NCBI GenBank assembly: GCA_000092065.1 | Contig: CP000583.1 | Strand: one strand, 5' to 3' | DNA length: 64,000 nt | Source: Ostreococcus lucimarinus | Lineage: Eukaryota | Shown: piece after piece, positions 19,872 through 64,000 of the stretch | Layout: every line of letters starts with the position of its first letter | Position numbering within the stretch: the first letter of the stretch is position 1 | Program-made: the position numbers and the translations under genes | The notes under the pieces: generated by a model | The model's input: the letters and a program-made list of their open reading frames with translations, nothing else | What the model was told of the DNA's origin: nothing | Database searches by the model: none

Positions 19872-20866
19872 TTAGTTCATGCGGCGGATGAGCGCGTTGA
19901 TCTTATCTTCGCGGTTACCAGCCATGCCACCTTCGATGAAGTGTTGCTTCTTCACAGTCATCCCGCCGTTCGGGGCGGAGAGCTTGAACGGCCACAAAAA
20001 GTTGGCGCACTCCTTGAAGTGCGGACCGACGGTGTAAATTTCGTGAATCAAGTCTTCGACGCAAATGATCCCCTTGTCGCCGAGGGCTTGCTCAACCACG
20101 GCGTTATCCGTGAGCGGAATGCGCTGCTTGTTCACCTTACCGTAACCACGCTTGTAGATGAGCTCTCTAACCGTCTTCAAGTTCGGGTAACCAAACATGA
20201 TGTACGGCTCCACCTTGCGAAGCTGGTTGAGCGTCGCCTTGTTCACCTTCATGAAAATCCCGTTGTGGATTTGACGCAAGCGAAGGAGCTGGAGAATCTT
20301 CTTCGTCTTCGGGTGAATGTCATTCAAACCGCGCAAGCGCATGACAAACATGAGCTTTTCCTCGGGTTCGACGTAGAAACCACCCTTGGCGCGCGCCTCG
20401 CGCTTGAGACGCACGAGGTCGGCTTCCTGCGCGCGCGAACAGACGCATCGTCGTCGTCGTTAGTCATCGCGTCCAATCGAGCGTTCGCGAGCGCAACGCG
20501 ACGCATCGTAATGTCGCCTCCGCCTATCAATCGCAAGCGCGCATCCAACACGCGTCGCGCTCATCCCAAGGCCGCCGCGCGACGCGCGCGACGTCCCGCG
20601 ACGTCCCGACGAACCCTAAAACAATCCCATCGCGCCCAGTCACATCGCTCGCTCACATCACGCACCTGGTCGCGGTACTCCTTGACATACTTCTCCGCGC
20701 GCTTGAAAATTTCCTCGCGCTTCTTCTCGCCCGCCTTCTTCGCTTCGGCCGCGGCCGCCGCCTTTTGCGACGCCCACTGCTCGTCGCGTTTGCGCTTCTT
20801 CAGCACGGATTCGGGAACGGTGGAAGGCTGCACGTCGCGCGCGCGAAAGCGTCCTCCGTCAGTCAT
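19872..20866 (-). CDS. RPL7: 60S ribosomal protein L7 (uL30). Two exons: 20666..20866 and 19872..20426, with intron 20427..20665
   Basis: Exon 1 (MTDGG...[15 protein letters not shown]...KEYRDQ) joins exon 2 ([19 protein letters not shown]...[14 protein letters not shown]). Together they reproduce full-length L7 (~251 aa). The donor is GTGCGT, the branch CTAAC, the acceptor CAG. Confidence 0.85.
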
Positions 20867-21423
20867 CGTTCGTCGCAAACATATCCATCCACCGATCGCC
20901 CTCGATCTCCCTCCCTCTCGCGCCGCGACCGCGCCGACATCGCCCTCCCATCGACGCATCGACGCGCCGCGCGTTAGGGTCACGCATCGCGCGAATCGCG
21001 TGCACCGTCGCGCGCACCGCGCGCGCATCGCCGATCGACGACGCGCGCGCGCGGTGACGAGTGCGAATGCGCGCGTCACGCGCGGTCGCTTCGCGTTCGC
21101 CGCGCACCATGCTCGCGTTCGCGCGTCGAGGTTAGAGGCCGACGAGGTCGCGATCGACGCGCGACGCGCCCGTCCGCCGGCGCGTCGAGGGTCGTGTGTC
21201 GTCGAGTCTTGTCATGTCCGAATGTCCGAATCTCTGCGGACGGTCGATCTCACATCGGCGCGCGCATCGGATCGTACGGTATTCTCGACCGACGAAGATT
21301 CGCGATAAATCGTTTCGCACTGAATGCCCAGGCGATGCACGAACGACGACGCGCCCGCGGCGCGCGAATGCCGAGCGGATCCGAGGCGCCAGATCGACGC
21401 GCGCGCGACGATTCGCGCGAGCG

Positions 21424-29855: not shown

Positions 29856-29870
29856 GCGATCGATCGCGAC

Positions 29871-29950
29871 GTCGATCGATCGATCGATCGATCGATCGAT
29901 CGACGCATCGACGCATCGAGGCGTCGATCGCGACGCGCGATCGATCGATC
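29871..29950. repeat. (CGAT)n / (TCGA)n microsatellite
   Basis: A perfect CGATCGAT... run, self-complementary. Confidence 0.9.
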
Positions 29951-30023: not shown

Positions 30024-31593
30024 ATGTTTTGCGCGATCAGTGGGGCGGCGCCGGCGCGCCCGGTGGTGACGCCGAGAGGCGTGCTGTACGAGAGATCGTT
30101 GATCGTGAAGGCGATCGAGGTGCGCGCGCGAACCGAGGGCGAGGGGAGGGCGATGGGAGGACGCGCGCGGGCGATCGCGGCGAACGGGGCGCGGATGCGA
30201 CGTGAATTGTGACGCGCGAATGCTGACCGGAACGCGCGATTTACGACGATAGGAACGAGGCGAGTGCCCGGTGACGAAAGAATCGCTGAGCGTGGACGAT
30301 TTGATCGAACTCAAGGCGCAGAAATGGGTGAACCCGCGACCGGAGGCGACGATGTCGGTGCCAGGGTTGTTGAGCGCGTTTCACAACGAGTGGGACGCGT
30401 TGATGCTAGAAACGCACACGCTGCGGAAGGAATTACAAACGACCAGGCAAGAGTTGAGTCATGCGTTGTACCAACACGATGCCGCGTGTCGAGTGATCGC
30501 ACGGTTGATGAAGGAGAGAGATGATGCCAGAGACGCGCTCGCGAACGCGAAGGGGTCGGCGAAGCGAAGCGCCGCGGGGGACGCCGAACCGGAATCGAAA
30601 AAGGTCAAGGCGGGACTTCCGGCGGCTGTCGTGGCGAAAATGAATGACGTGCAGAAGGAACTTTCGAGTGGACGCAAGAAGCGCGAAATTTCGAGCGAAT
30701 TGGCGACGATGGGGGATATCTCGGCGTACGAAGCCAAGGTGACGCAAGCTGTGCACAAGACGTCGCCTGCAGGCATCAACGCCGTGGCGATCAAAGCGGG
30801 CGACGATAACGTCATCGCCACGGCGGGTAACGATCATACTGTGGCAATCTTTGACAAAGTAAGCTCGCAGCGCGTTCAGCAGCTCAGCGGACATTCCAAG
30901 AAGGTTCTCGACGTCAAGTTTGTCGGCGACAACGTGTTGTCGTGTGGCGCGGACAAAGTCGTCAAGCTTTGGGGTGCCGATGGCTCTGAGATTGCAACGT
31001 TCGGTGATCACACTGGTGATGTAACCAGCGTCAGCGTGCATCCCTCGAACAGCTATTTTGTGTCCACTTCAACGGACAAGACTTGGGGATTTCACGACCT
31101 TACCACGAGCTCGTGCATCACCTTGGTGAACGACGACACCGATTCTGCCATCACGTGCGCAAATTTCCACCCCGATGGTGTGATTTTGGGAGCGGGCACG
31201 AAGGATTCGGTAGTTAAGCTTTGGGATGCTAAAGATGCGCGCAAGTTGCTTCAATTAGACGGCCATGCGAGCGAGATTACCGGTTTGTCTTTCTCGGAAA
31301 ATGGCTACTATCTCGCCTCTGCGGCTAAGGACGGTGTGAAGATTTGGGACCTTCGAAAGTCCAAGCTCGTTCACGAGATCGAATGTGCTGGCGCACAGGG
31401 CGTTGCTTTCGACCACAGCGGGTCTTACATCGCCACTGGCGGTCACAATGCGTCCGTTTACCAGGTGAAAGGCAAGTGGGAATTGGTCAAGGAGTTTGAG
31501 GTGAAGAAGGCTGTCAAGGCTGTCGCCTTCGGCGGCGACGCGCGGTCGCTCGTCGTCGCTAGTGCCGACCATAACTTGCGTATCTTCGCTTAG
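30024..31593 (+). CDS. PRP19: Pre-mRNA-processing factor 19 (U-box E3 plus WD40). Two exons: 30024..30119 and 30253..31593
   Basis: Exon 1 (MFCAISGAAPARPVVTPRGVLYERSLIVKAIE) is the U-box start. Exon 2 continues ERGECPVTKESLSVDDLIELK, then the SHALYQHDAACRVIARL coiled coil and 7 WD repeats. The 133-bp intron is GTGCGC...CTGAC...TAG. Confidence 0.85.
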
Positions 31594-36124: not shown

Positions 36125-37143
36125 TTACAATACGACGGCGGCGGCGGCGCGGTCAAAGTCTCGCTCCAAAGACGCGATTTTCGTCAAAGCTTCGTTCGCC
36201 ACTCCGGCCTGCTTCATGGCGTTCACGAACCTGGCCGAGGACTTGCCGAGGTGCAGCGCGCACGCGGCTAAATTCGCGAGCGTCTCGCCATCCTTCGGAT
36301 CGATGGCCACGGCTTCTAGTAAATCACGCTCGGCGTCTTCGTAACTATTCATCATCATCGAACACACCGCTGAACCATTATACAGCTTCGGCGTCCACTT
36401 GTACTTATCGCCGAGCTCTTGGTAAATGTACGAGGCGTCTTGAATCTTCTTCCCGCCGCTCGCGCAGTTCGCCCACGCGCACGCGAGCTGCGCGATGGTC
36501 GAATCGTCATCGATCTGTTGCATCATCTTCGCTTGCTTTTCCGCCAACTCCGCGCGATCCATCTTACACAGCAAGTTCACCATCATCGCGTTCAACTCCA
36601 GCGACGATCCTCCGTGACACAGCCTCATCGCCTCGACGTAATTCCCCTCTCGCGCGAGCAGCGTCGCCCCGACGAGTCGCGTCGTCGCGTCCCCAGACGC
36701 GTGTTCGTCCGCCAGCATCTCACCGATCGCCTCCATCGCGCTCTGTCTCGCCTTTTCGTCCTCGTTCGTCTCGTACAGCGCCAGCAATTTCACCGCTCGC
36801 AGCGCCGCCGGCGCGTCCTCCGCCGTCTCGCGCGCGACGATCTGTTCGTTCACCCATCGGGCGCCGTCTCGTCAGTCCTTCGTCGTCCCGGGCGCTCGCG
36901 CGCGCGATCGGCGCTCGATCGGCGCGTTCGTTTCTCCGTCCGGTCCCTTCGCGGCGTTTCGCGCGCGTCGCGTCGTCGTCGCACCTCGCCCTCGCCCATG
37001 GCGACGCGCGATCGCGCGACGAACGCGTCGCGCCTGACGGCGTCGACGCCGTCCGCGTCCGCGCACGCCCTCGCGGCGTCGACGCACTCGGCGTAGGCGC
37101 CGATGTGGAAGTAGTTCTCGCAGTGAAACAGCGCCTCGGACAT
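36125..37143 (-). CDS. COPE: Coatomer subunit epsilon. Two exons: 36985..37143 and 36125..36841, with intron 36842..36984
   Basis: Exon 1 (MSEALFHCENYFHIGAYAEC...VAMGEGE) matches the COPE N-terminus. Exon 2 (IVARETAED...ERDFDRAAAAVVL) matches the rest. The intron is GTGCGA...CTGAC...CAG. Confidence 0.8.
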
Positions 37144-52783: not shown

Positions 52784-53061
52784 TCGAGCCACTTGCCCCA
52801 CGCCAAGCACAACGCGCGCAACACGCGCAGGTTGTCAAGTTGGCGCAACGGCGTAGGATCTGAGACGAGCGTATGCAACGGCGCGCGAAGATACTACAGC
52901 GCAATACTCGTGTACACTTCATTTCTAATATTCACGTAGACGCTATAAAGTATTTCGCTCGTGACACGCGTCTCGTCCCGCACATACTCCGACGCTTCAC
53001 TTACTAGCGCGCAGTATTGACTAAATCATCAATAGTTGCCTCTCGCGCCGTGTTAAACTCG

Positions 53062-54108
53062 ATGACGTACGAAATACTGGAGTACTCGACCACTTCAGTC
53101 GACTTCACGCCGCACGATAGCCGGTGGATTCCGCACAGCGCGCGCTTTGTTGTCCTCGGAGAAACTGCAAAGTCAACAGGAAGACTAGGTGTCTTCAAGT
53201 TGAGCGATAGCGGCGTCACCTCAGTGTGTGAGACTGAACGAGACAGTGGTCTCAAATGCTGTACATTTGGCAGTCACACGCTTCCAGAGCGATTCATCGC
53301 TACAGGAAGTCTGAGTGGTGAGCTCGAAACGTGGGACCTCGAACATGCGTCGGAACCGCGGTCGAGCTTCAAAGCGCACCGCGGCGCAGTCAACGCTATT
53401 GACGGCATTGGGGGGGGGACACATGGAATTGGTGCGCTAGAAATTGTTACAGGTGGTCGAGATGGGACAGTGAAAGTCTGGGATACGAGGCAAGACAGTG
53501 CAGTGGCAATATTTAAATCAGTCTCCGCATCAACGTGCGAATGTTGGTGCGTCGCATTTGGAAACTCTTTCGACGAGAATGAGCGCTGCGTGTTAGCTGG
53601 TTATGAGAATGGAGACGTGAAGATGTTTGATCTTCGAGTGGGCACCGTGAGATACGAGACGAACATCGCAAATGGGGTATGCAGCGTCGAATTTGATCGA
53701 AAAGATATTACAATGAACAAATTTGTTGCGACATGCCTCGAAAGTCAATTCGTGGTGTTTGATGCGCGAACGCAACACCCGGACGATGGGTTTGCTTCAG
53801 TGACACAGAATTCATCGGTCAAAACGACAATCTGGGGTGTTCGACATCTTCCTCAGGATCGGGAGGTGTTCGCCACGCTGCTCGGTGATGGTTCAGTGGC
53901 GTTGTACAGGTATGAGTACCCGGTGAAGAGACAAAGATTGTGCCCCGCTGGCAAACCTCAAGGAGTAGCAGGAAGTGCAAAACGTATTAGTTCGACGAGT
54001 CTCGCGTCGCAGCCGATCAATAGCTGGGATTGGCACGCAGAAAAGACGGGACTTGCGGTATGTAGTGGGTTTGACCAGCACGTGCGTGTTGTTGTCATGA
54101 CTAATTGA
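53062..54108 (+). CDS. WDR92: WD repeat protein 92 (Monad), a dynein-arm assembly factor
   Basis: Collinear with human WDR92 across the whole length (AINAIDGIGG, IVTGGRDGTVKVWD, NGVCS.EFDRKDI.MNK.VAT.LE). Confidence 0.85.
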   Translation: MTYEILEYSTTSVDFTPHDSRWIPHSARFVVLGETAKSTGRLGVFKLSDSGVTSVCETERDSGLKCCTFGSHTLPERFIATGSLSGELETWDLEHASEPRSSFKAHRGAVNAIDGIGGGTHGIGALEIVTGGRDGTVKVWDTRQDSAVAIFKSVSASTCECWCVAFGNSFDENERCVLAGYENGDVKMFDLRVGTVRYETNIANGVCSVEFDRKDITMNKFVATCLESQFVVFDARTQHPDDGFASVTQNSSVKTTIWGVRHLPQDREVFATLLGDGSVALYRYEYPVKRQRLCPAGKPQGVAGSAKRISSTSLASQPINSWDWHAEKTGLAVCSGFDQHVRVVVMTN

Positions 54109-54130
54109 TTTTTATTCACATCCAAAAGAA

Positions 54131-55357
54131 TTAATCTAACGCGTCGGACTCGTCGTTATTCTGCGATGCCATAGCTTTCATCAACTGCGCGAGCATCTCC
54201 TGCATTTCGTTGTTGACGCGATCTCCATTGCGAACGTCTCGCGCCGCTCGTCTGCGGAAATCCGTCTGCTGGTAGAGTGACGCAGCTTCCGTCGACGGCG
54301 GACTGGTGTCCAAGACTTCTTTAAAATCTGAATACGCAATTGCGCGTGGCCCAACAGACGTATCCTGTCCGAATTCTCCGAATTGCGCTTGCTTCCTTTC
54401 TGCTTGAAGGAAATCTCTCACGGGGCCGTATGCCGCTTGTTTGCACAAGTCGCGCAAGTCACTCCCACTAAAGCCCTCCGTCTGTGCTGCGATCTTCCAC
54501 AGCGGGCAGTCTTGACTCGGTGATATGAAACCAGCTTCCAGATTTTCTCCCTTGAGTGTCACAGCCAGCACCTGCGCACGCTGCTCCGTGTTAGGGAGAC
54601 CAACCTCAAACGCTCTCGGAAGACGTCGCAAGATTGCTTCGTCCACATCCCATGGCCTGTTCGTCGCCCCGAGCACCATCACCTGCGCGTTGTCATCCGT
54701 GTTGAACCCATCCCAAAGCGTCATGAATTCGGTCTTCATCGTCGAAGTCGCTTCGTGCTCTCCAGACTTTCTAGTACCTAAGAACGAGTCAATCTCATCA
54801 ATGAAAATGATTGAAGGCTGAAGCTTCCAGGCCAGCGTGAAAACTGCAGATACGAGCTTCTGAGCGTCACCGAACCACTTGCTTTGCAAGGTTGACGACC
54901 GAACATTGATAAAGCAGGCACGCGATTCCTTCGCTAACGCTTTTGCCAACAAAGTTTTCCCTGTGCCCGGAGGCCCATAGAGCAAGACCCCTTTCGCCGG
55001 CTGCAAGAGTTTACCTCGCGCGAAAAGCTCGGGGCGCATGAGAGGCAAAATGACCAATTCATATAATGACTGTTTCGTATCTTCCAACCCACCGATGGAA
55101 TCAAATCGCACGTCAATGTGGTCTGGGTTGGCGACGTCGGCCGCAATCACATCCTCGTACACGTTCGTGTCTAAATTAGGTCGTCCTAAACGGCTCGCCA
55201 GCTCCTTTTTCCTCTCGATTGCCGCCTTACTCGTCTGACGGTTCGGATCTAACCTCTTGAGTCCGAAGTTCAACACGATCATAGACAGCAAGGCGCTACA
55301 ACCGATGAGGAGGAGCTCCTGCAAGACCGAAGGTTGTCCACTCTGAGCGCGACTCAT
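54131..55357 (-). CDS. ATAD1: Msp1/ATAD1-type membrane-anchored AAA ATPase
   Basis: An N-terminal TM ([15 protein letters not shown]) and an AAA module near-identical in order to ATAD1 ([34 protein letters not shown]). Its 3' end is only 22 bp from the WDR92 stop. Confidence 0.85.
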
Positions 55358-55571
55358 CGTGCTTTCTTTCGCGCGTGCAAGCGGGTTGAGCTCGACGACA
55401 CTCGCGGCCGTGTGCGCAAAGATATCGTTACGTCCCAGACCGTCGTCTGCGTGCGCAAACTGATTTCACGCGCGCGTCAAAGTGAGGAGACGTATCGGAT
55501 CTCGTCCACTCTCGGGCGGTTTTTCTGTTCTGCTGGGCACAATTCTTGACAACTATACTACTCAAATAATT

Positions 55572-56438
55572 CTATTCCTGGTTCGGGGGCGCTTGTAAGC
55601 TCTTGGCGTTGAACGTAGCTTCGCGTTTGGCTCTCTCGACCCAGTTCATGGCCGCGATCGAGCCCTCTCGCGATTCCAATAATTTCTTGAGTTGGTCGTA
55701 CAGAGGTCTTTCGTCGAACTCTCCGAGAGCCTCGGCGACAATTTTGTTGTTCTCATTCGGCGCTAACGCAAACACTTGCCACTTGTTCGGGTATACTTTT
55801 AACGTACGCACGATCTCTCCTTGAATGCGCTGCTCCTTCAAGTAATACGTCTGCTCAAACTTCCCCACAAACTCTTCTGCCCGTCGCTTCCACGGCCCAA
55901 AGCCGAAGTCGCCAATGATGGCGCCCTTGGTGTTCCATTGCGGGTTAGCGATGATCTTTAGACGGAAATCGTTTTTGTTTTCGATCGCCCGCAAATCATC
56001 CAAGACCTCGGCCGTCGGAAACGAGACAACGACGTCGGAACCAAGCGTCAGAGCCGCCACTGCATCGGCGTCGTCGATGACGCGTTGTTGGCACGTCCCC
56101 TCGGCGCCGGCGTTGATTAGTCGCAGCACCTCGCTCACCATGGGCGCTAGAGCGCCGTATTGTTGACGGATCCCGCCCGGCCAATCATCAAGATCGGTAG
56201 CACCGATCAAAGGAAGGTTCAACTCGATCGCTTGCGTCGTTTTTCCGTCCCTCAACGCCGCTTCGATCGCCCCAGCGGCTTGCTCTATCTGCTCCTTCGT
56301 GTTCAACGGAAGCGATGGGAGGGCGCTGACGACGGTTCGCGCGGCTCGCGCGGCTCGCGTGCGCGTTTTATTCATCGAGCGTCGCGCGAGCGACGGCGAC
56401 ACGCGCGCATTGGTCGAACACGATGACGACGACAGCAT
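55572..56438 (-). CDS. DUF1995-like protein with a Ser/Thr/Arg-rich plastid-type transit peptide
   Basis: ELNLPLIGATDLDDWPGG..QYGALAPMV resembles the DUF1995 core. The N-terminus is MLSSSSCSTNARVSPSLARRS... Confidence 0.45.
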   Translation of the reverse strand: MLSSSSCSTNARVSPSLARRSMNKTRTRAARAARTVVSALPSLPLNTKEQIEQAAGAIEAALRDGKTTQAIELNLPLIGATDLDDWPGGIRQQYGALAPMVSEVLRLINAGAEGTCQQRVIDDADAVAALTLGSDVVVSFPTAEVLDDLRAIENKNDFRLKIIANPQWNTKGAIIGDFGFGPWKRRAEEFVGKFEQTYYLKEQRIQGEIVRTLKVYPNKWQVFALAPNENNKIVAEALGEFDERPLYDQLKKLLESREGSIAAMNWVERAKREATFNAKSLQAPPNQE

Positions 56439-56562
56439 CGTCCGTTCTCGAGGCGACGTGTGCGGGTGCGACCTCCAGCCAAGCCCGCCAGACGTCCACG
56501 TGTGACGTGCGGCGACGAGGCGGGCGATGAATCGAGCCGCGACGGTGACGATAGAAACGTAA

Positions 56563-57600
56563 ATGGCAGCCCCGGATGGTGCGCGCGAGTTTTACACCGG
56601 GAAGAACGTGTGCGCGCCCATGGTGCGCATCAGCACCCTGGCGACGAGGCTCTTGGCGCACGAATACGGCGCAGACTTGGTGTACGGGGAGGAACTCGTG
56701 GACAAGCGTTTCATGCACTGCAGGCGGATATTAAATAAAGAGCTCGGAAGCGTTGATTTTATCGACGCCAAGGGCACGCTGACATTCCGCACGGTGCCAG
56801 AGGAGCGCGAGCGCGTGGTGTTTCAGGTTGGAACTTCTTCGGCGGCTTCGGCTCTGAAGAGCGCGGAACTCGTCGCCAGGGACGTAGCGGCGATTGACGT
56901 TAATATGGGGTGTCCCAAGCATTTCAGCACGTCCGGTGGGATGGGTGCGAGACTGTTGAGCCAGCCTGAATTGGTAAGAGACATATTGACCACGTTGAGG
57001 AGGAATCTGCCATCGACGACACACGTGACTTGCAAGATACGGCTGCTTGAGAGCGAGAGAGAGACAGCAGAGTTGGCGAAAATGATAGAATCTTGCGGAG
57101 TCTCTGCATTCGCAGTGCACGGCCGTTATATTCCACAGCGTCCACGCGAGCCAGCGCACTGGAATCTTATAAAGAACGTCGTTGAAGCGGTCGACTGTCC
57201 CGTCATTGCAAATGGCGATGTGGAATGTTACGAAGATTTTGCGAGAATTAGAGCCCAAACAGGCGCGGCTAGTGCCATGTGCGCAAGGGGAGCACAGTGG
57301 AACCTTTCGATATTTCGTCCAGAAGGCATGCTACCGATTGATGTGGTAAAAAAGCACTTTGTTCAAAGAGCAATCGAGTATGACAATCCGTGGAACTTTA
57401 CAAAGTTTCAGTTGCGAGAGATTTTAGTTCACAACAAGCGCATGGCTTCTGATGAGGGACAATGTCTCAATAAGTGCAAAACATGGGATGAACTCGCGGA
57501 GCTTTACTCGTTAGAAGACGTGCTGAAGGAGAGCCGAGAGAAGCGTCGGCGAGCCGCACTTCGAGACGACGACGAATACACTGACACCGTTCATCCATAG
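56563..57600 (+). CDS. tRNA-dihydrouridine synthase (Dus family, Dus2-like)
   Basis: A TIM-barrel FMN-binding core (APMVRIS..LVYGEELVD..IDVNMGCPK..AVHGRY..ANGDV). Confidence 0.8.
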   Translation: MAAPDGAREFYTGKNVCAPMVRISTLATRLLAHEYGADLVYGEELVDKRFMHCRRILNKELGSVDFIDAKGTLTFRTVPEERERVVFQVGTSSAASALKSAELVARDVAAIDVNMGCPKHFSTSGGMGARLLSQPELVRDILTTLRRNLPSTTHVTCKIRLLESERETAELAKMIESCGVSAFAVHGRYIPQRPREPAHWNLIKNVVEAVDCPVIANGDVECYEDFARIRAQTGAASAMCARGAQWNLSIFRPEGMLPIDVVKKHFVQRAIEYDNPWNFTKFQLREILVHNKRMASDEGQCLNKCKTWDELAELYSLEDVLKESREKRRRAALRDDDEYTDTVHP

Positions 57601-57653
57601 ACGTAGCTCTTAGCGTAATTCATTTCTATAGATATCTACTACATTTCATCCAT

Positions 57654-60566
57654 CTACCTCAAATACTGCGCAACACGATGTGCACGCTCGAATATAGGAT
57701 CCAAGAATGCATTGCTTGAGCGGTGGATTTCGCTTATGAAGTGTTGCATGGCGGCCTCATCATCGAGCTCTAACGCGAACTTTGACTCAAATCTAAGCAA
57801 AGCTTTTTCGTAGTCTTGATTTATGTTGATGTCAGGGATATTCGCGTCTGCCATCAGGCTGAAAAGATTCAACAGCAACACCACCGACTCACTCTTTCGT
57901 AAGATGTTGTATGCTTCGCAACAGTAAGTCTTAAACTCACTGAAGTACTCGCCCATCGCTTCGACCATCTCTTTGCAGAGCTTCATCGATGGGGGAGAAA
58001 TCTTTGGATCACGTCCCATGATGAATCCAAAGTCAATGTGAAACAACCTTCCATCTGAGGCCAGCATCAAGTTGTCCAAGTGTCGGTCCCCCACGCCCAG
58101 CAGATACGTAATCACCGAGTACCCAGCACAACTCTTGACGAAGTTCATCATCGATGTCATCGTACATCCGTTCGGGCCGTGCGGGTCGGGATTGTGTAAA
58201 GCTATGTATGTCGTCAGCTTCTCGTGTTCCTTGAGGATGTCAGCAAGCCCTTGGGACTTGACAAACTCAATGAGTCCTGTATCATTTCCAGTGGCGAGTA
58301 CACGGTACGAAGTCAATTTCAAATCAAGATTTTCTCGCTTCAAAAGCTTGTCCATCAATGAAATCATCTGCACGCAGAGTTGATCTTGCCGTAAGTCATC
58401 GCCCTTCTTGAAGATCATCGTTGCGCTGTCCCCGGTGCTGTTGGCGAAATATAATTAATAAAAAAAATAAAGTCGAATGTGAAATAATTACTCACAGCGT
58501 CTGGAACGCGAGCTTCAATGGGCTCAGCGCAGATTTGAAAACATTACTTTCACTGAAACATGAATGATTTAACCACTCGTCGAAAACGTGCAGAAATTGA
58601 GATTTACCTCGCAAGTATGCCAGTCGTCAATACCTGAGCGAAAATTAAATAATTAGACCGTGAGAAGACAAACGAAAGCTCGCAATTCTGAACGTACCGT
58701 CGGATTCAACGGGTTGGGAATGGCCTGAGGGAACGATGTTAACACAGCACCAAGCGTATTGTCACTAGAGAGAATGGCCTGCGAAGTTAATCGCGTCAGC
58801 TCCCGAATATTTAATTAATTCAGAAATAATAATTGAACGTACCCTCAGACGCTCGACTTTACGCGCCCCACGAAGCGTGTTAACTTCTTGAGTAATGATC
58901 TACCCACGTAACGTCAGAAACGAATTAATTCGACGTAATTGATCGAAAACCGTACCGTAATCTTTTCCATCAGTTCCCGCTGGAATTTCAGTGTCTCCCA
59001 AACACTACGTCCTCGTGTATCCTTCGCCCTACTAGCTCGCTCGAACATGCGGAATGCGCTCATGCTACGTTCCGCTGCTAATCCCTCCCATCCAACTTGC
59101 AAGTACCTGCGACAAAACGCGTCAGAACCAATCTTGATACATTTAATTTAATTTAATTAATTCCACGAGGTGGAGTTCTTTGCACTAATACGTACCAGTA
59201 CAAATAGTTCCCGACGACTTCGTTCGCGACTGCGCGTTCGACTAAAAATTTCGCGAGTTCGTTGTCGTCGGCTGTTTCGTAGCGTAACGCCTGTTTGCAT
59301 TTGCGAAGAAAATTTGTTAGTGAACCCATTTAATTTAACACATCGAGCACAGAGCGCACTGAGACATAGAGTATCGACAACATGTGCGCAAACGATCCAT
59401 ACCTGAACTAACTGCAGCAAATATAGCAATAGATCTTCATTCTCAGCTTGTCTCAGGATGGAAACCGCGTAACGACGTACTTCGCTGTTCGAGAAGGTTG
59501 GTGTCAGAAGTTCCAACGCTGCGGCTGGGCCGATGGGCGCCCACTCGCGCATCAGTTGCACTGAGGCCTGCGTTTCAGCCGGATCTGACCAGTCGACACA
59601 CTTAAGGAACTTTGTTAACGCCCTTGGATCGTGACTTATGGCGAATCTAAACTTCCACAGCAAATTTTGCGATTCCATGTCCAGCGGTCGCGTGGGTGGG
59701 AGTTGGATAATTGCCGACAGCCTGCGCTTCTCGGCTCCATCTGGCTTCAACTCCATATCAATAACGCCACGACCGACACTACGCGAAAGCTTTTGATGCT
59801 TACGCTCAGCCGGGTTTTCTAACATCAAATTAACCTCGTCGTCGACGAGCCAAGTCAAGCGCTGCCAACTGTGAATCTCCAGCGGCTCCACGTCTTCTCG
59901 ACGCTCGCGAAAAATCACTGGGCGCACGTACACGGGCAGCTCTACCAAGAGTTGGAAGAAGTCATCAGTCGCCTGGGCTATACGCAACTGCATACTTCGA
60001 GCATCTCGTATGCGAGAAAACACCAAATTATCCAACCAGTTCACCGAAGGCAAAGTTCCTTGCTCATACTGCACCAAGAAACTCTCGAGCTGCTGGAGCT
60101 CCGCCTGTTGCTCCATGAACTTGGCGCCAAGTTGATCGTACTCTTTCTTCGACTCACGAGCCGTCGAGAGCGCTAAACAACGCAAACCTTGTAATAATCG
60201 ATCATCGTCCCCAAAAATATCCACTCGAGAGTATCCCAACACGGTGTTCGGCAACTTTCTCGCCGAAAGTATTCTAAATTCGAGAGACGTCTCACGAGGA
60301 AGATCTCTCACTTTGATGGGAAATCTCAGCTTTTCCTTCCACTCAGCCATTCCATCGGCGTGAACAACCATCGTTGTAGAAACTTCATTCGTAAGAGGTT
60401 CCTCGTTCGACAGCAAACGAGCGCTCACAAGAATTTCACTCTCCACGGTTCCCACTCGCGAGCGAGGCAGTTTGCCGTACAGCGCCTTGACGTGCACGTT
60501 GAAGTCTAACGAGACATCTCTGCTTGAAAAGACCTTCAAGTTCTCATCTTGAACCACGTCGGTCAT
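57654..60566 (-). CDS. VPS34: Phosphatidylinositol 3-kinase class III (Vps34). Eight exons: 59403..60566, 59196..59290, 58956..59106, 58843..58899, 58698..58778, 58608..58633, 58496..58552, 57654..58437
   Basis: Exon 1 carries the C2 and helical (PIK) domains and ends LLLYLLQLVQ. Small exons encode [84 protein letters not shown] and SESNVFKSALSPLKLAFQTL. These are collinear with the human linker ([65 protein letters not shown]). The last exon is the kinase domain (GDDLRQDQL...DRH..DFG). All splice phases are consistent. Donors are GTATGG, GTACGT (x3), GTACGG, GTAAAT and GTGAGT. Confidence 0.75.
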
Positions 60567-60922
60567 CTCGAACGACCTTTTCGCCCCCCAATCGGTTCGC
60601 ACGTGCGCTAATCCACCGACTCGACCGATAACCGAATGTCGTCGGCTTTTGAATCTTCACTCGCGTCCGTCAATCCTGCGTTGCCCGCCGAGTCCGCGTG
60701 GCACACGCTTGAATAACCCACAACGCACTGGTTGCCGTCTCGCTCGCCCGCGCGCGCTCGTGCGGTTGCGCGCAGTCTGCGGTGCGCCAACGCGAACGCG
60801 ACGGGAGGAAAAAAAGCTCAGCGCGTGTGGCGCCAAAATTCCCCAGACGAGAACAGGTCGAGCAGACGCCGCCACACGAGTACGTTCAGACGGCATTCGA
60901 CGGCGTCCGCGACGCTGAGACG

Positions 60923-61972
60923 ATGCTGGCGTGTAACGCATGCTGGTGTGACCTAGACTCTGGATCGGCGTACATCGCGGCGTGCGATCACGTCTTCTGT
61001 GCGTGCGAAAGACGCGTGTGCTCTCGACCTCGACCGTTTAGGTTGCGGTTTTATTCGAATACTTCCCTCGCTCGAAGCGCGCGCATGGCGCGAGTTCGTA
61101 GAATCTGACGACAGTTGATCGACACAGGTGAAAAGGATGTGCACCTCGGCCTCGAGCAGCGACAGTGCGCGGTGTGTGCGACGAAGATGGAAGAGCGAAC
61201 TATTCGAGTCTCGGAAGTTCAACCCGACCTCGGCGAGCTTCAACGCAAGCTGACTGGCCTCAACCCGAACGACATGCTCACCGCCGTTGCGTACGGATTA
61301 AAATTTTGGGACGATCAACTCGAGCTTCGATACAGAACTGAGCTTGAAAAGTCGTTCACGAGCGCGCAAAGAAGCGCTGAGATGTACAAGAGGAAACTTC
61401 AGGTGTGTCGTCGCCTCTTGAAACGCCACATGCCATGCAAACTAACCTGATCGCACCTCCAGGACGTGCACAACGCTTATAAGAGAGCCAAGACGAAACA
61501 AGATGAACTTGCCGCTCAGTTAAAGGAACGAGAGAATGATATTGAAGAGTTACAGCATCGCTACGAAGAGAAGAGCAGAGAGAAGCGTCGTTTGGAAGAT
61601 TCAGCTGGAAGAGGCAGACCGAGCCTGGGACCACAGTTTCAGGCACGCACGGCACCTATGATGCCAGAGACTGCGGGTCGAATCGATACTCGAGGTCGTA
61701 CCGAACCTGATGGTTGGCTGCAACAACAACGGGTCTCGTCTAGCGAACTCCGCAGTCATCGTAGCTCCGAGCAACTTCACAGGAATTTACCGCAGCGTCG
61801 CACCAGTCTCACGCGCAGTTTCGACAGCGGATTGACACCTCCATCAAATTCACGCGACTCACACGAGCGCACATTTCGAGCTCTTTCTCCGTACACGCGT
61901 CAGGCAGTCGAACCACCTTCTCGGCCCGGACGTGATTCCGTCGGACTGTTCTCGAAACGACGCATATTCTGA
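60923..61972 (+). CDS. HEI10: HEI10/CCNB1IP1-like RING E3 ligase (meiotic crossover factor family). Three exons: 60923..60998, 61128..61402, 61463..61972
   Basis: The N-terminal MLACNACWCDLDSGSAYIAACDHVFC matches HEI10 (LLCNYRKCRIKLSGYAWVTACSHIFC). The second Cys pair QCAVCAT and a coiled-coil middle region are also present. Introns are 129 bp (GTGCGT..CTGAC..CAG) and 60 bp (GTGTGT..CTAAC..CAG). The spliced product is ~287 aa against 277 aa for human HEI10. Confidence 0.55.
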
Positions 61973-62129
61973 CGCCGATTGACAATTGAATGAACGAGTG
62001 AAACGAGTGATGACGACATGCATAATAACGATTATCTTTTATTCTCTACTAGATGGCTAAAAGAGATATGTGGTAACACGCTACGTAGGAATGTAAAGGT
62101 TTGAATGAAATGACTCGACCGTTGCCTTT

Positions 62130-62843
62130 TTATCGCCCGATGATACTCTGCGCCGCCACGTTGAGGCCCGAAAGTAGGGCGCCACCAGCACCATACACCG
62201 CTACAGCGCGAGGACCACTCATACTTTTGTAAAGTGCCCCTGCACCTCCGCCTGCGAATATGGAGCACAGGGAATCGTGCCGATTTTCCAAGTACGCCAT
62301 CGAGGCGCTTTCGAGAGCGGCGTAATACAAGCCGAGGCAACCCAAGGTGTTCCCCATCGATCGTCCTCTTTGACTTACGGCGTTGAGCATTCTATTCAAT
62401 CGCAACTTGGACGTGTCCAAAGCCGGTTCCGGTGCGGCTTTCATGCTCCCGTATAACCCCCACCCTCCGCCGGCGATGCTTCCACCGAGGTATCCAACCC
62501 CGGTCAGGTACGTCAGGTTTTCACTCCAGCTTCGCGTCTTCACCGTGCGCTCTTCATCGAATAAGAACTCAGGTGTATCCGATAACGCATAAATCGCCTT
62601 ATTCATCGACGGATCGAAAGGCCCACCCAATCCGCTATACGGATTGTACGCCCCGCTCGCCCCGCTCGGCAGCGCCAGGCTCTCCGCCGGCGCCCCGAAG
62701 TTTGGCTGCTCTATGTTCTCGTTCAGCGCGCTCGTCGTCACCGCGCCTCCGTTGGGTTCATCCAACGTCTTTGCCCCGCTCGATGACGCTTCGTTCTTGT
62801 TCTTTTCACCCCTTCGCACGCTCAACAAGTCTCGAAGACCCAT
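62130..62843 (-). CDS. TIM23: Mitochondrial inner-membrane translocase subunit TIM23 (Tim17/22/23 family)
   Basis: An N-terminal IMS region and the Tim17-family core (GVGYLGGSIAGGGWGLYGS...MGNTLGCLGLYYAALES...GAGGALLSG). ATG at 62843. Confidence 0.7.
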   Translation of the reverse strand: MGLRDLLSVRRGEKNKNEASSSGAKTLDEPNGGAVTTSALNENIEQPNFGAPAESLALPSGASGAYNPYSGLGGPFDPSMNKAIYALSDTPEFLFDEERTVKTRSWSENLTYLTGVGYLGGSIAGGGWGLYGSMKAAPEPALDTSKLRLNRMLNAVSQRGRSMGNTLGCLGLYYAALESASMAYLENRHDSLCSIFAGGGAGALYKSMSGPRAVAVYGAGGALLSGLNVAAQSIIGR

Positions 62844-62942
62844 GATTCCACGCCAGACTCGCGATCGGCGCCGACGCGCGTCCGTCCTTTAATCGGTTTC
62901 CGTCGCGCGCGTCGGTCGCGTCGCGCGCGTCGGTCGCCGTTC

Positions 62943-63006
62943 GTCGCGTCGCGCGCGCGTTCGAGTCGCGCCTCGTCGCGTCGCGCGCGCGTTCGAGTCG
63001 CGCCTC
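62943..63006. repeat. Tandem duplication of a 32-bp GC-rich unit (CGTCGCGTCGCGCGCGCGTTCGAGTCGCGCCT x2)
   Basis: Seen directly in the sequence, inside a CpG-rich spacer upstream of TIM23. Confidence 0.8.
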
Positions 63007-63361
63007 GTCGCGGCTCGGCGCGCGTCGTCTTCAGACGACGAAAGATGTCGACGATGATTTTCCGCGCCCACCGCGAGGGTCTGGCGCTCGCGCGGGTTCG
63101 GTCCGCCCGGGCGCGACCTTTTCGGGACGGCGGCCCGCGTCGACTTTTACCGCGCGCAGAGGGCGACGCGGCGACGCGACCGCGACCGCGCGTCGACCGA
63201 GGGACGCCCGACCGCGGTCGGCGATGCGCGCGGTGGCGCCCGCGCCGAACGCGCGCGCGCGACGCGAGGCGACGACGCGGCGCGCGGGCGGTCGCCGCGC
63301 GCGATGGGGCGACGAGCGACGACCGCGCGCGAGTGCCGCGAGCGCGCGAACGGCGTGGACG

Positions 63362-64000
63362 ATGGGGATGAGTGAAAAGACATCGACGACGCGCGCGCGG
63401 CGATCGCGAGGAGACGGCGCGACGGAGACGCGAGCGCGGTGGACGTCGGCGCGCGCGGCGAACAAAGGGTGGGTGCTCTCCGAACGGGACTACCCCGAGG
63501 GAGAAGTGATCTTGGGGATCGAGATTCGATCGCATTCCATAAAAGCCGCACCAGTGGATACCGCGAACGCCGAGTTTCAGCGACCGGGGGTGTCGGTGCC
63601 GATCGAAGAATTCAACGAAGAAAGCTTGCGAGAGGCGCTCGAGAAGGTTAACAAACACTTTGGCTGGAGAGGGCCGGTGGGTGTAAGCTACACTCGTTTA
63701 GCCGTGCGCGCGCTCGGAGGCGTGCAAAAGGGAGAACAGCTGATGTCTAGGATGATTCCCGATTGGCAAGGACGAATCGCCATGATGATTCACACCGAGG
63801 CGGCGGCGTATGCGGAGATGTATTTCGGCCCAGGTCGCGAGAGCTCGGGCGTGGTGCTTGTGTGTACGCTCGGCAAAGGATTCGGTGCGGTGCTGTACAA
63901 ACGAGGTCAAAAAGTTCGAAACGCTGACTTCAAGCACATGACGTGGACGTACGAAAGGGAGCTCCAGAAATTACAAAAGACGTGGGGCTGGAGCGGCGTG
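63362..64000 (+). CDS. ROK/BadF-type sugar kinase-like protein (glucokinase-like), 5' part; continues past the window end
   Basis: Hand translation gives an open frame from ATG 63362 to base 64000. It has an Arg-rich presequence followed by VILGIEIRSHSIKAAPVD (like an ATP-binding phosphate-1 loop) and GVVLVCTLGKGFGAVLYKRG (like phosphate-2/adenosine). It is absent from the ORF track because no stop lies inside the window. Confidence 0.35.
   Translation, partial: MGMSEKTSTTRARRSRGDGATETRARWTSARAANKGWVLSERDYPEGEVILGIEIRSHSIKAAPVDTANAEFQRPGVSVPIEEFNEESLREALEKVNKHFGWRGPVGVSYTRLAVRALGGVQKGEQLMSRMIPDWQGRIAMMIHTEAAAYAEMYFGPGRESSGVVLVCTLGKGFGAVLYKRGQKVRNADFKHMTWTYERELQKLQKTWGWSGV

What the first reader, a model, noticed from the sequence alone, without database searches (positions are those of the whole stretch)
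57654..60602. Vps34 is a compositional and structural outlier: seven tiny AT-rich introns and lower GC3
Every other gene in the window has 0-2 GC-rich introns with GTGCG donors. Vps34 has seven introns of 55-112 bp. They are very AT-rich (runs such as TTAATTAAATAATTAG) and use GTACGT, GTAAAT or GTGAGT donors; most still show CTGAC/CTAAC branch-like motifs. Its exons use many more A/T-ending codons (gat, ttg, aat, tta) than upstream genes such as NSF or G3PDH. The drop in GC3 seems to begin around 48-50 kb, in the 3' half of gyrB. It is clearest through WDR92, Dus and Vps34 (53-60.6 kb). GC rises again at HEI10 and TIM23. This could be a boundary of a low-GC, intron-rich genomic compartment, as reported for outlier chromosome regions of some picoalgae. 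Alternatively it is a gene with a different evolutionary history.
Basis: partly seen in the sequence, partly recalled or inferred. Interest (0 to 1): 0.55.

Follow-up and report, generated by a model that had tools for sequence, protein, structure and literature searches.

The report
Outlier-type tiny introns outside outlier chromosome
The Vps34 gene of this Ostreococcus picoalga really has seven tiny AT-rich introns of the kind reported only from the low-GC region ("BOC1") of the alga's "big outlier chromosome", yet it sits in an ordinary, syntenic region (chromosome 3 in O. tauri) and keeps them in every Ostreococcus lineage sampled; this is a modest exception to a known rule, not a new compartment.

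Summary
The structural observation is correct. Vps34 (minus strand, 60566-57654) has 8 exons and 7 GT-AG introns of 112/89/56/64/64/55/58 nt with GC 0.24-0.41. The six canonical introns checked elsewhere in the window are 60-280 nt, GC 0.55-0.71, mostly with GTGCG donors.

The window comes from an Ostreococcus species. Two intron classes are already known in Mamiellales: canonical GTGCGT/ACTGAC introns and short AT-rich "BOC1" introns.

The compartment reading fails. The O. tauri ortholog lies on chromosome 3, in a block collinear with the window, and the neighbouring genes are intron-poor. The same seven introns sit at identical positions in 8 Ostreococcus lineages. Micromonas-like relatives have none at the syntenic locus.

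Vps34 GC3 (0.58) is not an outlier (z = -1.06, equal to G3PDH). A mild regional GC3 drop (0.58 vs 0.69) does run from 53 kb to at least 6.6 kb past the window.

A TAATTA/AATTAATT motif is conserved inside the introns. It is the one unreported detail.

Verdict: a new member of a known kind. Interest is modest.

The parts
57654..60566 (-). Vps34 (class III PI3K) gene from ATG to stop: 8 exons, 804 aa
   Evidence: In-frame model. Pfam PI3K_C2, PI3Ka and PI3_PI4_kinase. Collinear with the RCC789 transcript protein and O. tauri CEF97073.1.
59403..60566 (-). Exon 1 (1164 nt; C2 domain plus most of PI3Ka)
59291..59402 (-). Intron 1: 112 nt, GC 0.41, donor GTATGG, CACTAAC at -30
   Evidence: present in all 8 Ostreococcus lineages
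59196..59290 (-). Exon 2 (95 nt)
   Evidence: same length in O. tauri
59107..59195 (-). Intron 2: 89 nt, GC 0.36, donor GTACGT, CTGACG at -19. Carries GAATTAATTAAATTAAATTAAAT, a motif conserved in all 8 lineages. Same position and phase (2) as an Acropora Vps34 intron.
58956..59106 (-). Exon 3 (151 nt)
58900..58955 (-). Intron 3: 56 nt, GC 0.41, donor GTACGG, CTGACG at -18, GAATTAATTCG
58843..58899 (-). Exon 4 (57 nt)
58779..58842 (-). Intron 4: 64 nt, GC 0.34, donor GTACGT, CTGACG at -21. Carries GAATTAATTAAAT, conserved in all 8 lineages.
58698..58778 (-). Exon 5 (81 nt)
58634..58697 (-). Intron 5: 64 nt, GC 0.39, donor GTACGT, no CTRAC. CTAATTATTTAATT matches the O. tauri intron exactly; most other lineages keep only a CTAATTATTT-like core.
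58608..58633 (-). Exon 6: 26-nt micro-exon, same length in O. tauri
58553..58607 (-). Intron 6: 55 nt, GC 0.36, donor GTAAAT, no CTRAC
58496..58552 (-). Exon 7 (57 nt)
58438..58495 (-). Intron 7: 58 nt, GC 0.24, donor GTGAGT(AATTATTT), no CTRAC
57654..58437 (-). Exon 8 (784 nt including stop; kinase domain). 97% aa identity to O. tauri.
20427..21107 (-). Contrast: RPL7 canonical introns at 21107-20828 (280 nt, GC 0.71, GTGCGC) and 20665-20427 (239 nt, GC 0.65, GTGCGT); CTRAC at -35 and -37
36842..36984 (-). Contrast: COPE canonical intron, 143 nt, GC 0.71, GTGCGA, ACTGACG at -34
30120..30252 (+). Contrast: Prp19 canonical intron, 133 nt, GC 0.70, GTGCGC, CTGAC at -30
61003..61462 (+). Contrast: HEI10 introns at 61003-61127 (125 nt, GC 0.55, GTGCGA) and 61403-61462 (60 nt, GC 0.55, GTGTGT). 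These are canonical type next door to Vps34.
53008..64000 (.). Region of mildly lower GC3/GC from WDR92 to Trx; continues at least 6.6 kb beyond the window (L004). Not intron-rich.

Best explanation
The window is nuclear DNA of an Ostreococcus species that has no named NCBI protein in the database searched. The feature is its class III PI3K gene, Vps34.

The gene carries seven spliceosomal (GT-AG, U2-type) introns packed into 467 nt of coding sequence (aa 388-544). One exon between them is only 26 nt. By every intrinsic criterion these are the 'BOC1/chromosome-2 type' introns of Mamiellales: short, under 43% GC, GTRNGT-like donors, weak or absent branch consensus, many per gene. The gene itself, however, lies in an ordinary collinear region that is chromosome 3 in O. 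tauri.

All seven introns are fixed at identical positions in every Ostreococcus lineage sampled. All seven are absent from Micromonas-like relatives at the syntenic locus. This intron type is therefore a property of the introns and the gene, not of the BOC1 chromosomal territory.

Inferred mechanism. The introns are recognised by intron definition. A 26-nt exon flanked by 64- and 55-nt introns could hardly be recognised across the exon, so intron definition is the likely mode. The sharp GC drop (exons about 0.50, introns about 0.36) and conserved A/U-rich TAATTA-type elements help recognition, in place of the strong GTGCGT + GACTGACG consensus that the GC-rich canonical introns rely on. Retention of any of them would introduce a stop codon or a frameshift.

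Inferred origin, with lower confidence. They are relics of an older, intron-richer gene structure, kept in Ostreococcus and removed together in the Micromonas lineage by a single cDNA-type conversion.

Vps34's lower exon GC is modest. Downstream neighbours share it, as part of a mild regional GC3 depression of unknown cause. It is not a signature of foreign origin.
For: Organism. NSF is 84% identical to the cluster that contains O. tauri CEF97049. Hits at 100% identity occur only in marine metagenome contigs.

Gene model. It is in frame and collinear with MMETSP transcript protein P0448 of Ostreococcus sp. RCC789 and with O. tauri v2 protein P0430.

Two intron classes. Vps34 introns have mean GC 0.36 and length 55-112 nt. 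The six canonical introns have GC 0.65 and length 60-280 nt, with no GC overlap. The published definitions match.

Not BOC.
- The O. tauri ortholog is on CAID01000003.2 at 299-322 kb, and CAID01000001-20 correspond to chromosomes 1-20.
- NSF lies on the same O. tauri contig.
- Gene order DCN1-Seipin-GPKOW-DnaJ-Trx-Tim17-HEI10-Vps34-Dus-DUF1995-AAA is identical in the window species and in O. tauri.
- The neighbours are single-ORF genes.

Conservation.
- O. tauri has identical internal exon lengths (95/151/57/81/26/57) and introns of 123/86/55/64/63/55/64 nt with GC 0.28-0.48.
- In 8 Ostreococcus lineages, all 56 orthologous introns are GT-AG at the same columns, with GC 0.22-0.48. Only 5 of 56 donors are GTGCG.

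Absence elsewhere. More than 20 loci at 71-78% last-exon identity align as one uninterrupted stretch covering q4-804, or q39-55 to the end. Twelve of them were checked for neighbours: all have DUF1995 next to Vps34, and ten also have Dus.

Motif. AATTAATT hits in the window are 3 of 3 in Vps34 introns, against 0.41 expected. TAATTA-family hexamers occur in 38 of 56 introns, against 8.2 +/- 2.5 in shuffles, and in I2 and I4 of all 8 lineages.

Retention consequences. All 15 introns of 3n length carry in-frame stops. The 11 introns without an in-frame stop are all non-3n.

Antiquity hint. I2 matches an Acropora intron in position and phase.
Against: Splicing was not observed directly in this species; there is no RNA-seq here.

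The mapping 'CAID01000003 = chromosome 3' rests on the accession-to-chromosome numbering stated in PMC4378021. I did not read the record title.

I could not census the genome. Such introns may be common outside BOC1, which would make this trivial, or they may be extremely rare.

I1 (112 nt) and I2 (89 nt) exceed the 75-nt cut-off used to define BOC1 introns. Four of seven introns do carry a CTGAC(G)/CTAAC motif at -18 to -30, so the class boundary is not absolute.

Evidence for the relic origin is thin. One exact match of 7 with a coral has a chance probability of roughly 0.1. None of the 4 testable positions matches the angiosperm Nyssa. Bathycoccus was not recovered.

The function of the TAATTA motif is untested. 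Part of its excess could reflect dinucleotide bias of AT-rich DNA, although its positional conservation across saturated introns argues otherwise.
Confidence: 0.72

Rival explanations
1. The locus marks the edge of a low-GC, intron-rich genomic compartment (a BOC1-like region) that begins near 48-53 kb.
For: Bulk GC falls from 0.589 (1-53 kb) to 0.524 (53-70.6 kb including the L004 extension). Eleven consecutive genes have mean GC3 0.577 against 0.692 upstream, p = 3e-4. The syntenic O. tauri 22.9 kb also has GC 0.54. The Vps34 introns are BOC1-type.
Against: The O. tauri ortholog is on chromosome 3, not on the BOC, chromosome 2. The order of the shared genes is the same across the 22.9-kb O. 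tauri locus and in the four other Ostreococcus-like loci whose genes were listed or checked, whereas BOC1 lacks collinearity. Only 1 of about 12 genes in the low-GC3 stretch is intron-rich. The adjacent HEI10 has canonical GTGCGA/GTGTGT introns. The gyrB gradient is part of a general within-gene 5'-to-3' GC3 decline. Several genes upstream of 53 kb (RecQ, G3PDH, orf6867) are as low as Vps34.
Confidence: 0.06
2. Vps34 has a different history from its neighbours: it was acquired horizontally, or it was relocated from BOC1 to chromosome 3 and carried BOC1 features with it.
For: It has BOC1-type introns and the lowest bulk CDS GC in the window (0.498). Moreau et al. report that 22% of Bathycoccus BOC1 genes lie outside the BOC in Ostreococcus.
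Against: Vps34 is a universal eukaryotic gene. The best named hits are green algae and plants (60-64% in the kinase domain), with a graded series of Ostreococcus and Micromonas-like orthologs. Vps34 is adjacent to DUF1995, and in most loci also Dus, in both Ostreococcus and the intronless Micromonas-like relatives. The neighbourhood therefore predates the introns' lineage split and is not BOC1-like there (local GC 0.54-0.65). GC3 is not an outlier.
Confidence: 0.07
3. The seven introns were gained de novo in the Ostreococcus (or Bathycoccaceae) stem lineage, for instance by one burst of insertion of short AT-rich elements. They are not relics.
For: They are absent from all Micromonas-like orthologs. 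None of the four testable positions is shared with the land plant Nyssa, and only 1 of 7 is shared with Acropora. They are tightly clustered in 467 nt. Short motifs are shared between introns: GAATTAATTAAAT is identical in I2 and I4, and there are related 12-13-mers in I1 and I3. Mamiellales are known for intron-gain bursts (L080).
Against: Beyond 12-17-nt AT-rich motifs the introns share no similarity, have no terminal repeats and no target-site duplications, unlike the introner elements seen in L080. I2 coincides in position and phase with a cnidarian intron. Joint loss of adjacent introns by cDNA conversion is a well-known process (general knowledge) and needs one event in the Micromonas lineage.
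Confidence: 0.28
4. The 'introns' are artefacts: a pseudogene, assembly errors, or mis-modelled coding sequence.
For: One O. tauri annotation (OUS43795.1, 842 aa) reads through several of them as coding.
Against: Removing them restores one 804-aa frame that matches a transcript-derived 803-aa protein without gaps at any junction. GT-AG boundaries are kept in 56 of 56 orthologous introns, while intron interiors are diverged and exons evolve mostly at third positions. Independent metagenome contigs are 99.3-99.8% identical. PMC4378021 reports that 89% of introns in the O. tauri v2 annotation, the set this 8-exon model belongs to, are validated by RNA-seq.
Confidence: 0.02

Closest known systems
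BOC1 (chromosome-2) introns of Mamiellales (Derelle 2006; Moreau 2012, PMC3491373; Verhelst 2013, PMC3879977; Irimia & Roy 2008, PMC2483917)
   Same: Short (five of seven are 55-64 nt), under 43% GC, many per gene, GTRNGT-type donors instead of GTGCGT, weak or variable branch signal (CTGACG is the commonest six-mer), and a sharp GC drop at the splice sites.
   Different: Location. These are on the chromosome-3 homolog, in a collinear, intron-poor neighbourhood. I1 and I2 are longer than 75 nt. A TAATTA/AATTAATT core is conserved across species, whereas the literature reports no conserved motifs for BOC1 introns.
Canonical Mamiellophyceae introns (AG|GTGCGT donor, (G)ACTGAC(G) branch point, GC-rich)
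   Same: GT-AG. Four of seven keep a CTGAC(G)/CTAAC motif 18-30 nt from the 3' splice site, and acceptors are mostly CAG.
   Different: None of the 7 donors is GTGCG (5 of 56 across lineages). GC is 0.36 against 0.65. Length is 55-112 nt against 60-280 nt. There are seven in one gene against 0-2.
AU-rich intron recognition in land plants; tiny-intron surveillance by NMD (Jaillon 2008, cited in PMC3879977)
   Same: Intron/exon base-composition contrast, A/U-rich internal elements, and every intron disrupts the frame if retained.
   Different: This is only an analogy. No splicing factor binding or NMD dependence was tested here.
Introner elements of Micromonas (IE-A to IE-D)
   Same: Many introns in a single gene in a Mamiellales genome. 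The Micromonas-like ortholog L080 carries such elements in Vps34.
   Different: The Ostreococcus Vps34 introns are singletons. They share only 12-17-nt AT-rich motifs, lack terminal inverted repeats, are AT-rich rather than GC-rich, and are old (shared by all Ostreococcus lineages).

Membership tests
BOC1-type introns (Mamiellales) | Short: <75 nt (Verhelst 2013), 40-65 bp (Moreau 2012) | tested here: inconclusive
   Five of seven are 55-64 nt. I1 is 112 nt and I2 is 89 nt. The same pattern holds in 8 lineages.
BOC1-type introns (Mamiellales) | AT-rich: <43% GC, with a GC drop relative to flanking exons | tested here: met
   Intron GC is 0.24-0.41 against exon GC 0.47-0.52. Across 56 orthologous introns GC is 0.22-0.48; eleven are at or above 0.43 (all of I1 but three, and five of I3).
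BOC1-type introns (Mamiellales) | Located in the low-GC BOC1 sub-region of the big outlier chromosome | tested here: not met
   The O. tauri ortholog is on CAID01000003.2 (chromosome 3) at 299-322 kb. The block is collinear, and the neighbours are intron-poor.
BOC1-type introns (Mamiellales) | Weak, heterogeneous 5' splice site (GTRNGT) rather than GTGCGT; weak or no branch-point consensus | tested here: met
   Donors are GTACGT x3, GTACGG, GTATGG, GTAAAT, GTGAGT. Only 5 of 56 are GTGCG across lineages. CTRAC is present in 4 of 7.
BOC1-type introns (Mamiellales) | High number per host gene | tested here: met
   Seven introns in 2.4 kb of CDS, against 0-2 in the other window genes examined.
Canonical Mamiellophyceae introns | AG|GTGCGT(G) donor | tested here: not met
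   0 of 7.
Canonical Mamiellophyceae introns | ACTGAC / GACTGACG branch motif about 20-35 nt (Ostreococcus) upstream of the acceptor | tested here: inconclusive
   I1 has CACTAAC at -30. I2-I4 have (T/G)CTGACG at -18 to -21. I5-I7 have none.
BOC1 low-GC compartment | Extended low-GC block with high intron density, transposable elements, and loss of collinearity between species | tested here: not met
   There is a mild GC drop (0.589 to 0.524). Only Vps34 is intron-rich, and the shared genes keep the same order in O. tauri and in the four other Ostreococcus-like loci whose genes were listed or checked. Transposable elements were not searched for systematically.
Class III PI3K (Vps34) | C2 (PF00792) + PI3Ka accessory (PF00613) + PI3/PI4 kinase (PF00454) architecture; orthology to annotated Vps34 | tested here: met
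   Pfam hits. 74% (N-terminal) and 97% (kinase exon) identity to the O. tauri protein named 'phosphatidylinositol 3-kinase'.
Introner elements | Introns are copies of a repeated element (sequence similarity among many introns, often with terminal repeats or target-site duplications) | tested here: not met
   Only 12-17-nt AT-rich matches between the seven introns. Compare L080, where 9-15 copies of 33-97-nt units with inverted termini fill the introns.
U12-type (minor spliceosome) introns | (A/G)TATCCTT donor and TCCTTAAC branch site | tested here: not met
   No donor or branch sequence of this form in any of the seven.

The most novel reading that the evidence does not exclude
Mamiellales have a second splicing mode that does not depend on chromosomal location. 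Under this reading, short AT-rich introns carry a conserved palindromic TAATTA/AATTAATTAA core. The core acts as an intron-definition or splicing-enhancer element and doubles as a stop in all three frames, giving an NMD fail-safe. These introns work equally well on a normal chromosome. That would contradict the idea that chromosome-2 introns depend on a special BOC1 environment or on locally concentrated spliceosomes (Irimia & Roy 2008). It would suggest that BOC1 introns are the ancestral intron type, with Vps34 as a surviving relic outside BOC1.
Probability: 0.3. Interest if true: 0.55.

Novelty: new member of a known kind. Interest (0 to 1): 0.36.

Why it matters
The two intron populations of Ostreococcus have been treated as a natural experiment on how splice-signal strength relates to intron density. 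The weak-signal AT-rich class has been defined by its location in BOC1.

Here is a gene with seven such introns that has stayed stably on an ordinary chromosome throughout the genus. It shows that this intron type can persist, and presumably be spliced, outside BOC1.

That gives a clean test locus in a transformable model (O. tauri, chromosome 3). Three questions could be asked there.
- Does recognition of these introns depend on chromatin territory or on intrinsic AT-rich elements?
- Does the conserved TAATTA core matter for splicing?
- Are BOC1 introns ancestral relics?

There is also a practical point. Such genes are easily mis-annotated: one public O. tauri model reads through several of these introns.

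Tried and rejected
- Loci for distant hits P0367 and P0372 were low-GC, gene-sparse eukaryotes unrelated to Mamiellales and gave no information.
- The look-up of the Linum protein P0011 found no record.
- L014 (P0358) is a 2.2-kb contig that ends in adapter sequence and has a truncated gene. I used it only to note that intron 1 is absent.
- My quick junction-refinement script on L080, L075, L062 and others gave unreliable boundaries with many GC donors.
- L080 proved to be a Micromonas-like gene full of introner repeats, so it cannot serve as a reference for ancestral intron positions. L062 and L075 junctions read by eye did not coincide with the Ostreococcus positions.
- An exact cluster look-up of three intronless orthologs returned no species names. 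'Micromonas-like' rests on GC, on the similarity of L080's protein to them together with L080's introner elements, and on synteny.
- Rfam found nothing in 57.0-61.2 kb, so there are no intron-hosted snoRNAs.
- Derelle 2006 is not held. The kinome paper does not list Vps34.
- Two GC3 values (MT32, orf43918) and one (Vps34 exon 8) were computed out of frame. I replaced Vps34 exon 8 with the value for the spliced CDS before the regional test.
- HGT, U12-type introns and an introner family were each considered and rejected (see membership tests).


Full report
**What the window is**

The window is compact eukaryotic DNA with about 40 long ORFs in 64 kb and 58% GC. Pfam assigns ordinary housekeeping functions, including CCT, NSF, G3PDH, RPL7, Prp19, RecQ, COPE, gyrB, Dus and Tim17.

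The NSF protein has 100% matches only in marine metagenome ORFs. It is 84% identical to the cluster that contains O. tauri CEF97049.1 and 65% identical to Bathycoccus. Metagenome contigs 99.3-99.8% identical to the window exist; one is from a sample labelled BILL18-1. The source is therefore an Ostreococcus species that has no named NCBI protein in the database. It may be an oceanic clade, but that is not verified.

**The observation**

The gene lies on the minus strand. Three-frame translation and homology identify Vps34 pieces. Reading the minus strand gives eight exons:

| Exon | Window coordinates |
|---|---|
| 1 | 60566-59403 |
| 2 | 59290-59196 |
| 3 | 59106-58956 |
| 4 | 58899-58843 |
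| 5 | 58778-58698 |
| 6 | 58633-58608 (26 nt) |
| 7 | 58552-58496 |
| 8 | 58437-57654 |

The spliced CDS is 2415 nt with no internal stop. The 804-aa product aligns without a gap at any junction to a transcript-derived 803-aa protein of Ostreococcus sp. RCC789 (MMETSP) and to the O. tauri v2 protein CEF97073.1.

The seven introns are as follows:

| Intron | Length (nt) | GC | Donor |
|---|---|---|---|
| I1 | 112 | 0.41 | GTATGG |
| I2 | 89 | 0.36 | GTACGT |
| I3 | 56 | 0.41 | GTACGG |
| I4 | 64 | 0.34 | GTACGT |
| I5 | 64 | 0.39 | GTACGT |
| I6 | 55 | 0.36 | GTAAAT |
| I7 | 58 | 0.24 | GTGAGT |

CTGAC(G)/CTAAC lies 18-30 nt from the acceptor in four of them.

For contrast I located six introns elsewhere by reading the sequence around ORFs whose Pfam domains were truncated. 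These are RPL7 (280 and 239 nt), COPE (143), Prp19 (133) and HEI10 (125 and 60). Their GC is 0.55-0.71, five of six have GTGCG donors, and all have CTRAC at -21 to -37. The two sets do not overlap in GC (p = 0.003). A regex scan suggests a few more canonical 5'-proximal introns, for example in NSF and TPT. The structural half of the finding is confirmed.

**Composition**

The GC3 half of the finding is weaker.
- Vps34 GC3 is 0.581 against a window mean of 0.671 (sd 0.085).
- Its low bulk CDS GC (0.498) owes much to low GC1 and GC2.
- The drop inside gyrB is real (0.75 to 0.57). Window genes in general lose GC3 from 5' to 3': thirds 0.70/0.67/0.63, Wilcoxon p = 2e-4.
- There is nevertheless a regional signal. 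Locus L004 is the same species and extends 6.6 kb past the window. With it, the 11 genes from WDR92 to Seipin average GC3 0.577 against 0.692 for the 31 upstream genes (Mann-Whitney p = 3e-4; scan permutation p about 0.001).
- Bulk GC is 0.589 for 1-53 kb and 0.524 for 53-70.6 kb.
- The syntenic O. tauri stretch is also only 54% GC.

**Is it the outlier-chromosome compartment?**

The literature describes two intron classes in Mamiellales.
- Canonical introns have AG|GTGCGT donors and an NCTGAC/GACTGACG branch point.

In O. lucimarinus, non-chromosome-2 introns use GTGCGTG and 87% carry ACTGAC. Chromosome-2 introns prefer GTRNGT, and their commonest six-mer (CTGACG) occurs in under 5%.

The Vps34 introns fit the chromosome-2 description, but the locus does not.
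- O. tauri Vps34 lies at 299-322 kb of CAID01000003.2. Accessions CAID01000001-20 correspond to the 20 chromosomes, so this is chromosome 3. NSF is on the same contig.
- Gene order DCN1-Seipin-GPKOW-DnaJ-Trx-Tim17-HEI10-Vps34-Dus-DUF1995-AAA is the same in the window species and in O. tauri. The shared part is also kept in other Ostreococcus contigs. BOC1 is characterised by loss of collinearity.
- All neighbours are single-ORF genes or carry canonical introns.

This is not BOC1 and not its edge.

**Comparative anatomy**

O. tauri has the same eight exons, with identical internal lengths (95/151/57/81/26/57). Its introns are 123/86/55/64/63/55/64 nt with GC 0.28-0.48.

A metagenome scan with the last exon returned 73 loci. 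Every locus with at least 89% identity (Ostreococcus-like) shows the split structure. Every locus at 71-78% identity (local GC 0.54-0.65) aligns as one uninterrupted stretch covering q4-804, or q39-55 to the end, so it lacks all seven introns.

Twelve of these intronless loci were checked for neighbours. All have DUF1995 next to Vps34, and ten also have Dus, the pair being inverted relative to Ostreococcus. The locus is therefore orthologous and has not moved. They are probably Micromonas. One of the fragmented distant loci, L080, encodes a protein very like theirs and is packed with repeated introner-type elements, a Micromonas hallmark. Species names could not be obtained.

I aligned the intron-bearing segment from eight Ostreococcus lineages.
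- All 56 orthologous introns keep GT-AG at the same columns.
- Exons differ mostly at third positions, and intron interiors are largely randomised.
- Lengths are tightly kept: I3 52-56, I5 61-64, I6 54-60 nt.
- Donors are GTACGT (11), GTAAGT (10), GTGAGT (6) and others. Only 5 are GTGCG.

**A conserved motif**

Within otherwise diverged introns, an AT-rich palindromic core survives. It reads GAATTAATT..AATTAAATT in I2 and AATTAATTAA in I4 in all eight lineages, with related TAATTATTT in I5, I7 and I1.
- In the window, AATTAATT occurs three times, all in Vps34 introns, against 0.41 expected.
- TAATTA-family hexamers occur in 38 of 56 introns against 8.2 +/- 2.5 in shuffles.
- Beyond these 12-17-mers the seven introns share no similarity, so they are not an introner family.
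- TAATTAATTAA places TAA in all three frames. All 15 introns of 3n length carry an in-frame stop, and the 11 without one are all non-3n. Retention of any intron would break the frame.
- Moreau et al. reported no conserved motifs in BOC1 introns. Whether this motif is general to the class could not be tested here.

**Origin**

Exact exon mapping of the Acropora gene gives 17 introns. One coincides with I2 in position and phase, after NY(L/F)Y(W/C), phase 2. Another lies within one nucleotide of I6, but the coral model is poor in that stretch. The angiosperm Nyssa shares none of the four testable positions. Two GC-rich algal contigs, L062 and L075, also do not match.

The origin is therefore unresolved. 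I lean to retention of old introns with a single en-bloc loss in the Micromonas lineage, because adjacent introns vanish together. A stem-lineage gain remains a serious rival.

**Mechanism (inferred)**

A 26-nt exon between 64- and 55-nt introns could hardly be recognised across the exon, so intron definition is the likely mode. With weak donors and, in three introns, no branch consensus, recognition most likely relies on two things: the sharp GC contrast (exons about 0.50, introns about 0.36), as Verhelst et al. suggested for BOC1 introns, and A/U-rich internal elements, as in land plants (general knowledge). Nothing here tests this directly.

**Verdict**

Its explanation is mostly known biology: the Mamiellales two-class intron landscape.

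Two points are new.
- A BOC1-type intron cluster is stably maintained outside BOC1 across the genus.
- A TAATTA-type core is conserved within it.

The public O. tauri v2 annotation already contains the eight-exon model. An alternative O. tauri model reads through several of the introns.

Interest is modest.

Noticed in passing
L080:3000-10200 (Ga0307489_10001840): A Micromonas-like Vps34 ortholog is interrupted by at least 14 introns. They are built from repeated 80-97-nt units with inverted termini (GGTAGGGCCTGGCGGATATTGCTCGCCACGTCAT ... ATMACGTGGCGAGCAATATCCGCCAGGCCCTA), often in tandem. These are introner/MITE-type introns, a known kind, in the gene that is intronless in its close relatives.
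   Followed up: partly
window:53008-64000 plus L004:1-7700: There is a mild regional GC3 depression: 11 genes average 0.577 against 0.692 upstream, p = 3e-4. It extends at least 6.6 kb beyond the window and is mirrored in O. tauri chromosome 3. The cause is unknown; a recombination coldspot with reduced GC-biased gene conversion is a guess.
   Followed up: partly
window, all long genes: GC3 declines systematically from 5' to 3' within genes (thirds 0.70/0.67/0.63, Wilcoxon p = 2e-4). 5' intergenic regions and canonical introns are GC-rich (0.65-0.75), whereas convergent 3' ends are AT-rich.
   Followed up: partly
L008:10001-12916 (O. tauri chr 3); protein P0432 (OUS43795.1): A second public O. 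tauri annotation of Vps34 (842 aa) translates through introns 1 and 3 and the I5-I6 region. This shows that short AT-rich introns outside BOC1 are prone to mis-annotation.
   Followed up: yes
L036, L038, L040, L046, L049, L055 (downstream of Vps34): The Dus-DUF1995 pair next to Vps34 is inverted between Ostreococcus (Dus on minus, DUF1995 on plus) and the Micromonas-like loci (DUF1995 on minus, Dus on plus). In several loci Dus is split into two pieces.
   Followed up: no
window:58438-59402 and orthologs (alignment): All 15 of the 56 orthologous introns whose length is a multiple of 3 contain an in-frame stop. The 11 without an in-frame stop are all non-3n. This pattern is expected if retained introns are policed by nonsense-mediated decay.
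   Followed up: partly
window:7672-7804; 7259-7323; 29870-29945: An extremely AT-rich intergenic stretch (50-nt minimum GC 0.14, TATATA runs); a short tandem repeat (CATCAAGTGAAACATCAATTGACA-like) inside a predicted ORF; and a (GATC)n microsatellite upstream of Prp19.
   Followed up: no
L011, L012, L022-L034: In other Ostreococcus lineages the whole syntenic block is markedly lower in GC (0.45-0.51 over 7-17 kb; GC3 of Dus, AAA and WDR92 0.45-0.48) than in the window species and O. tauri (0.53-0.54). Either these species have lower genomic GC or the regional depression is deeper there.
   Followed up: no
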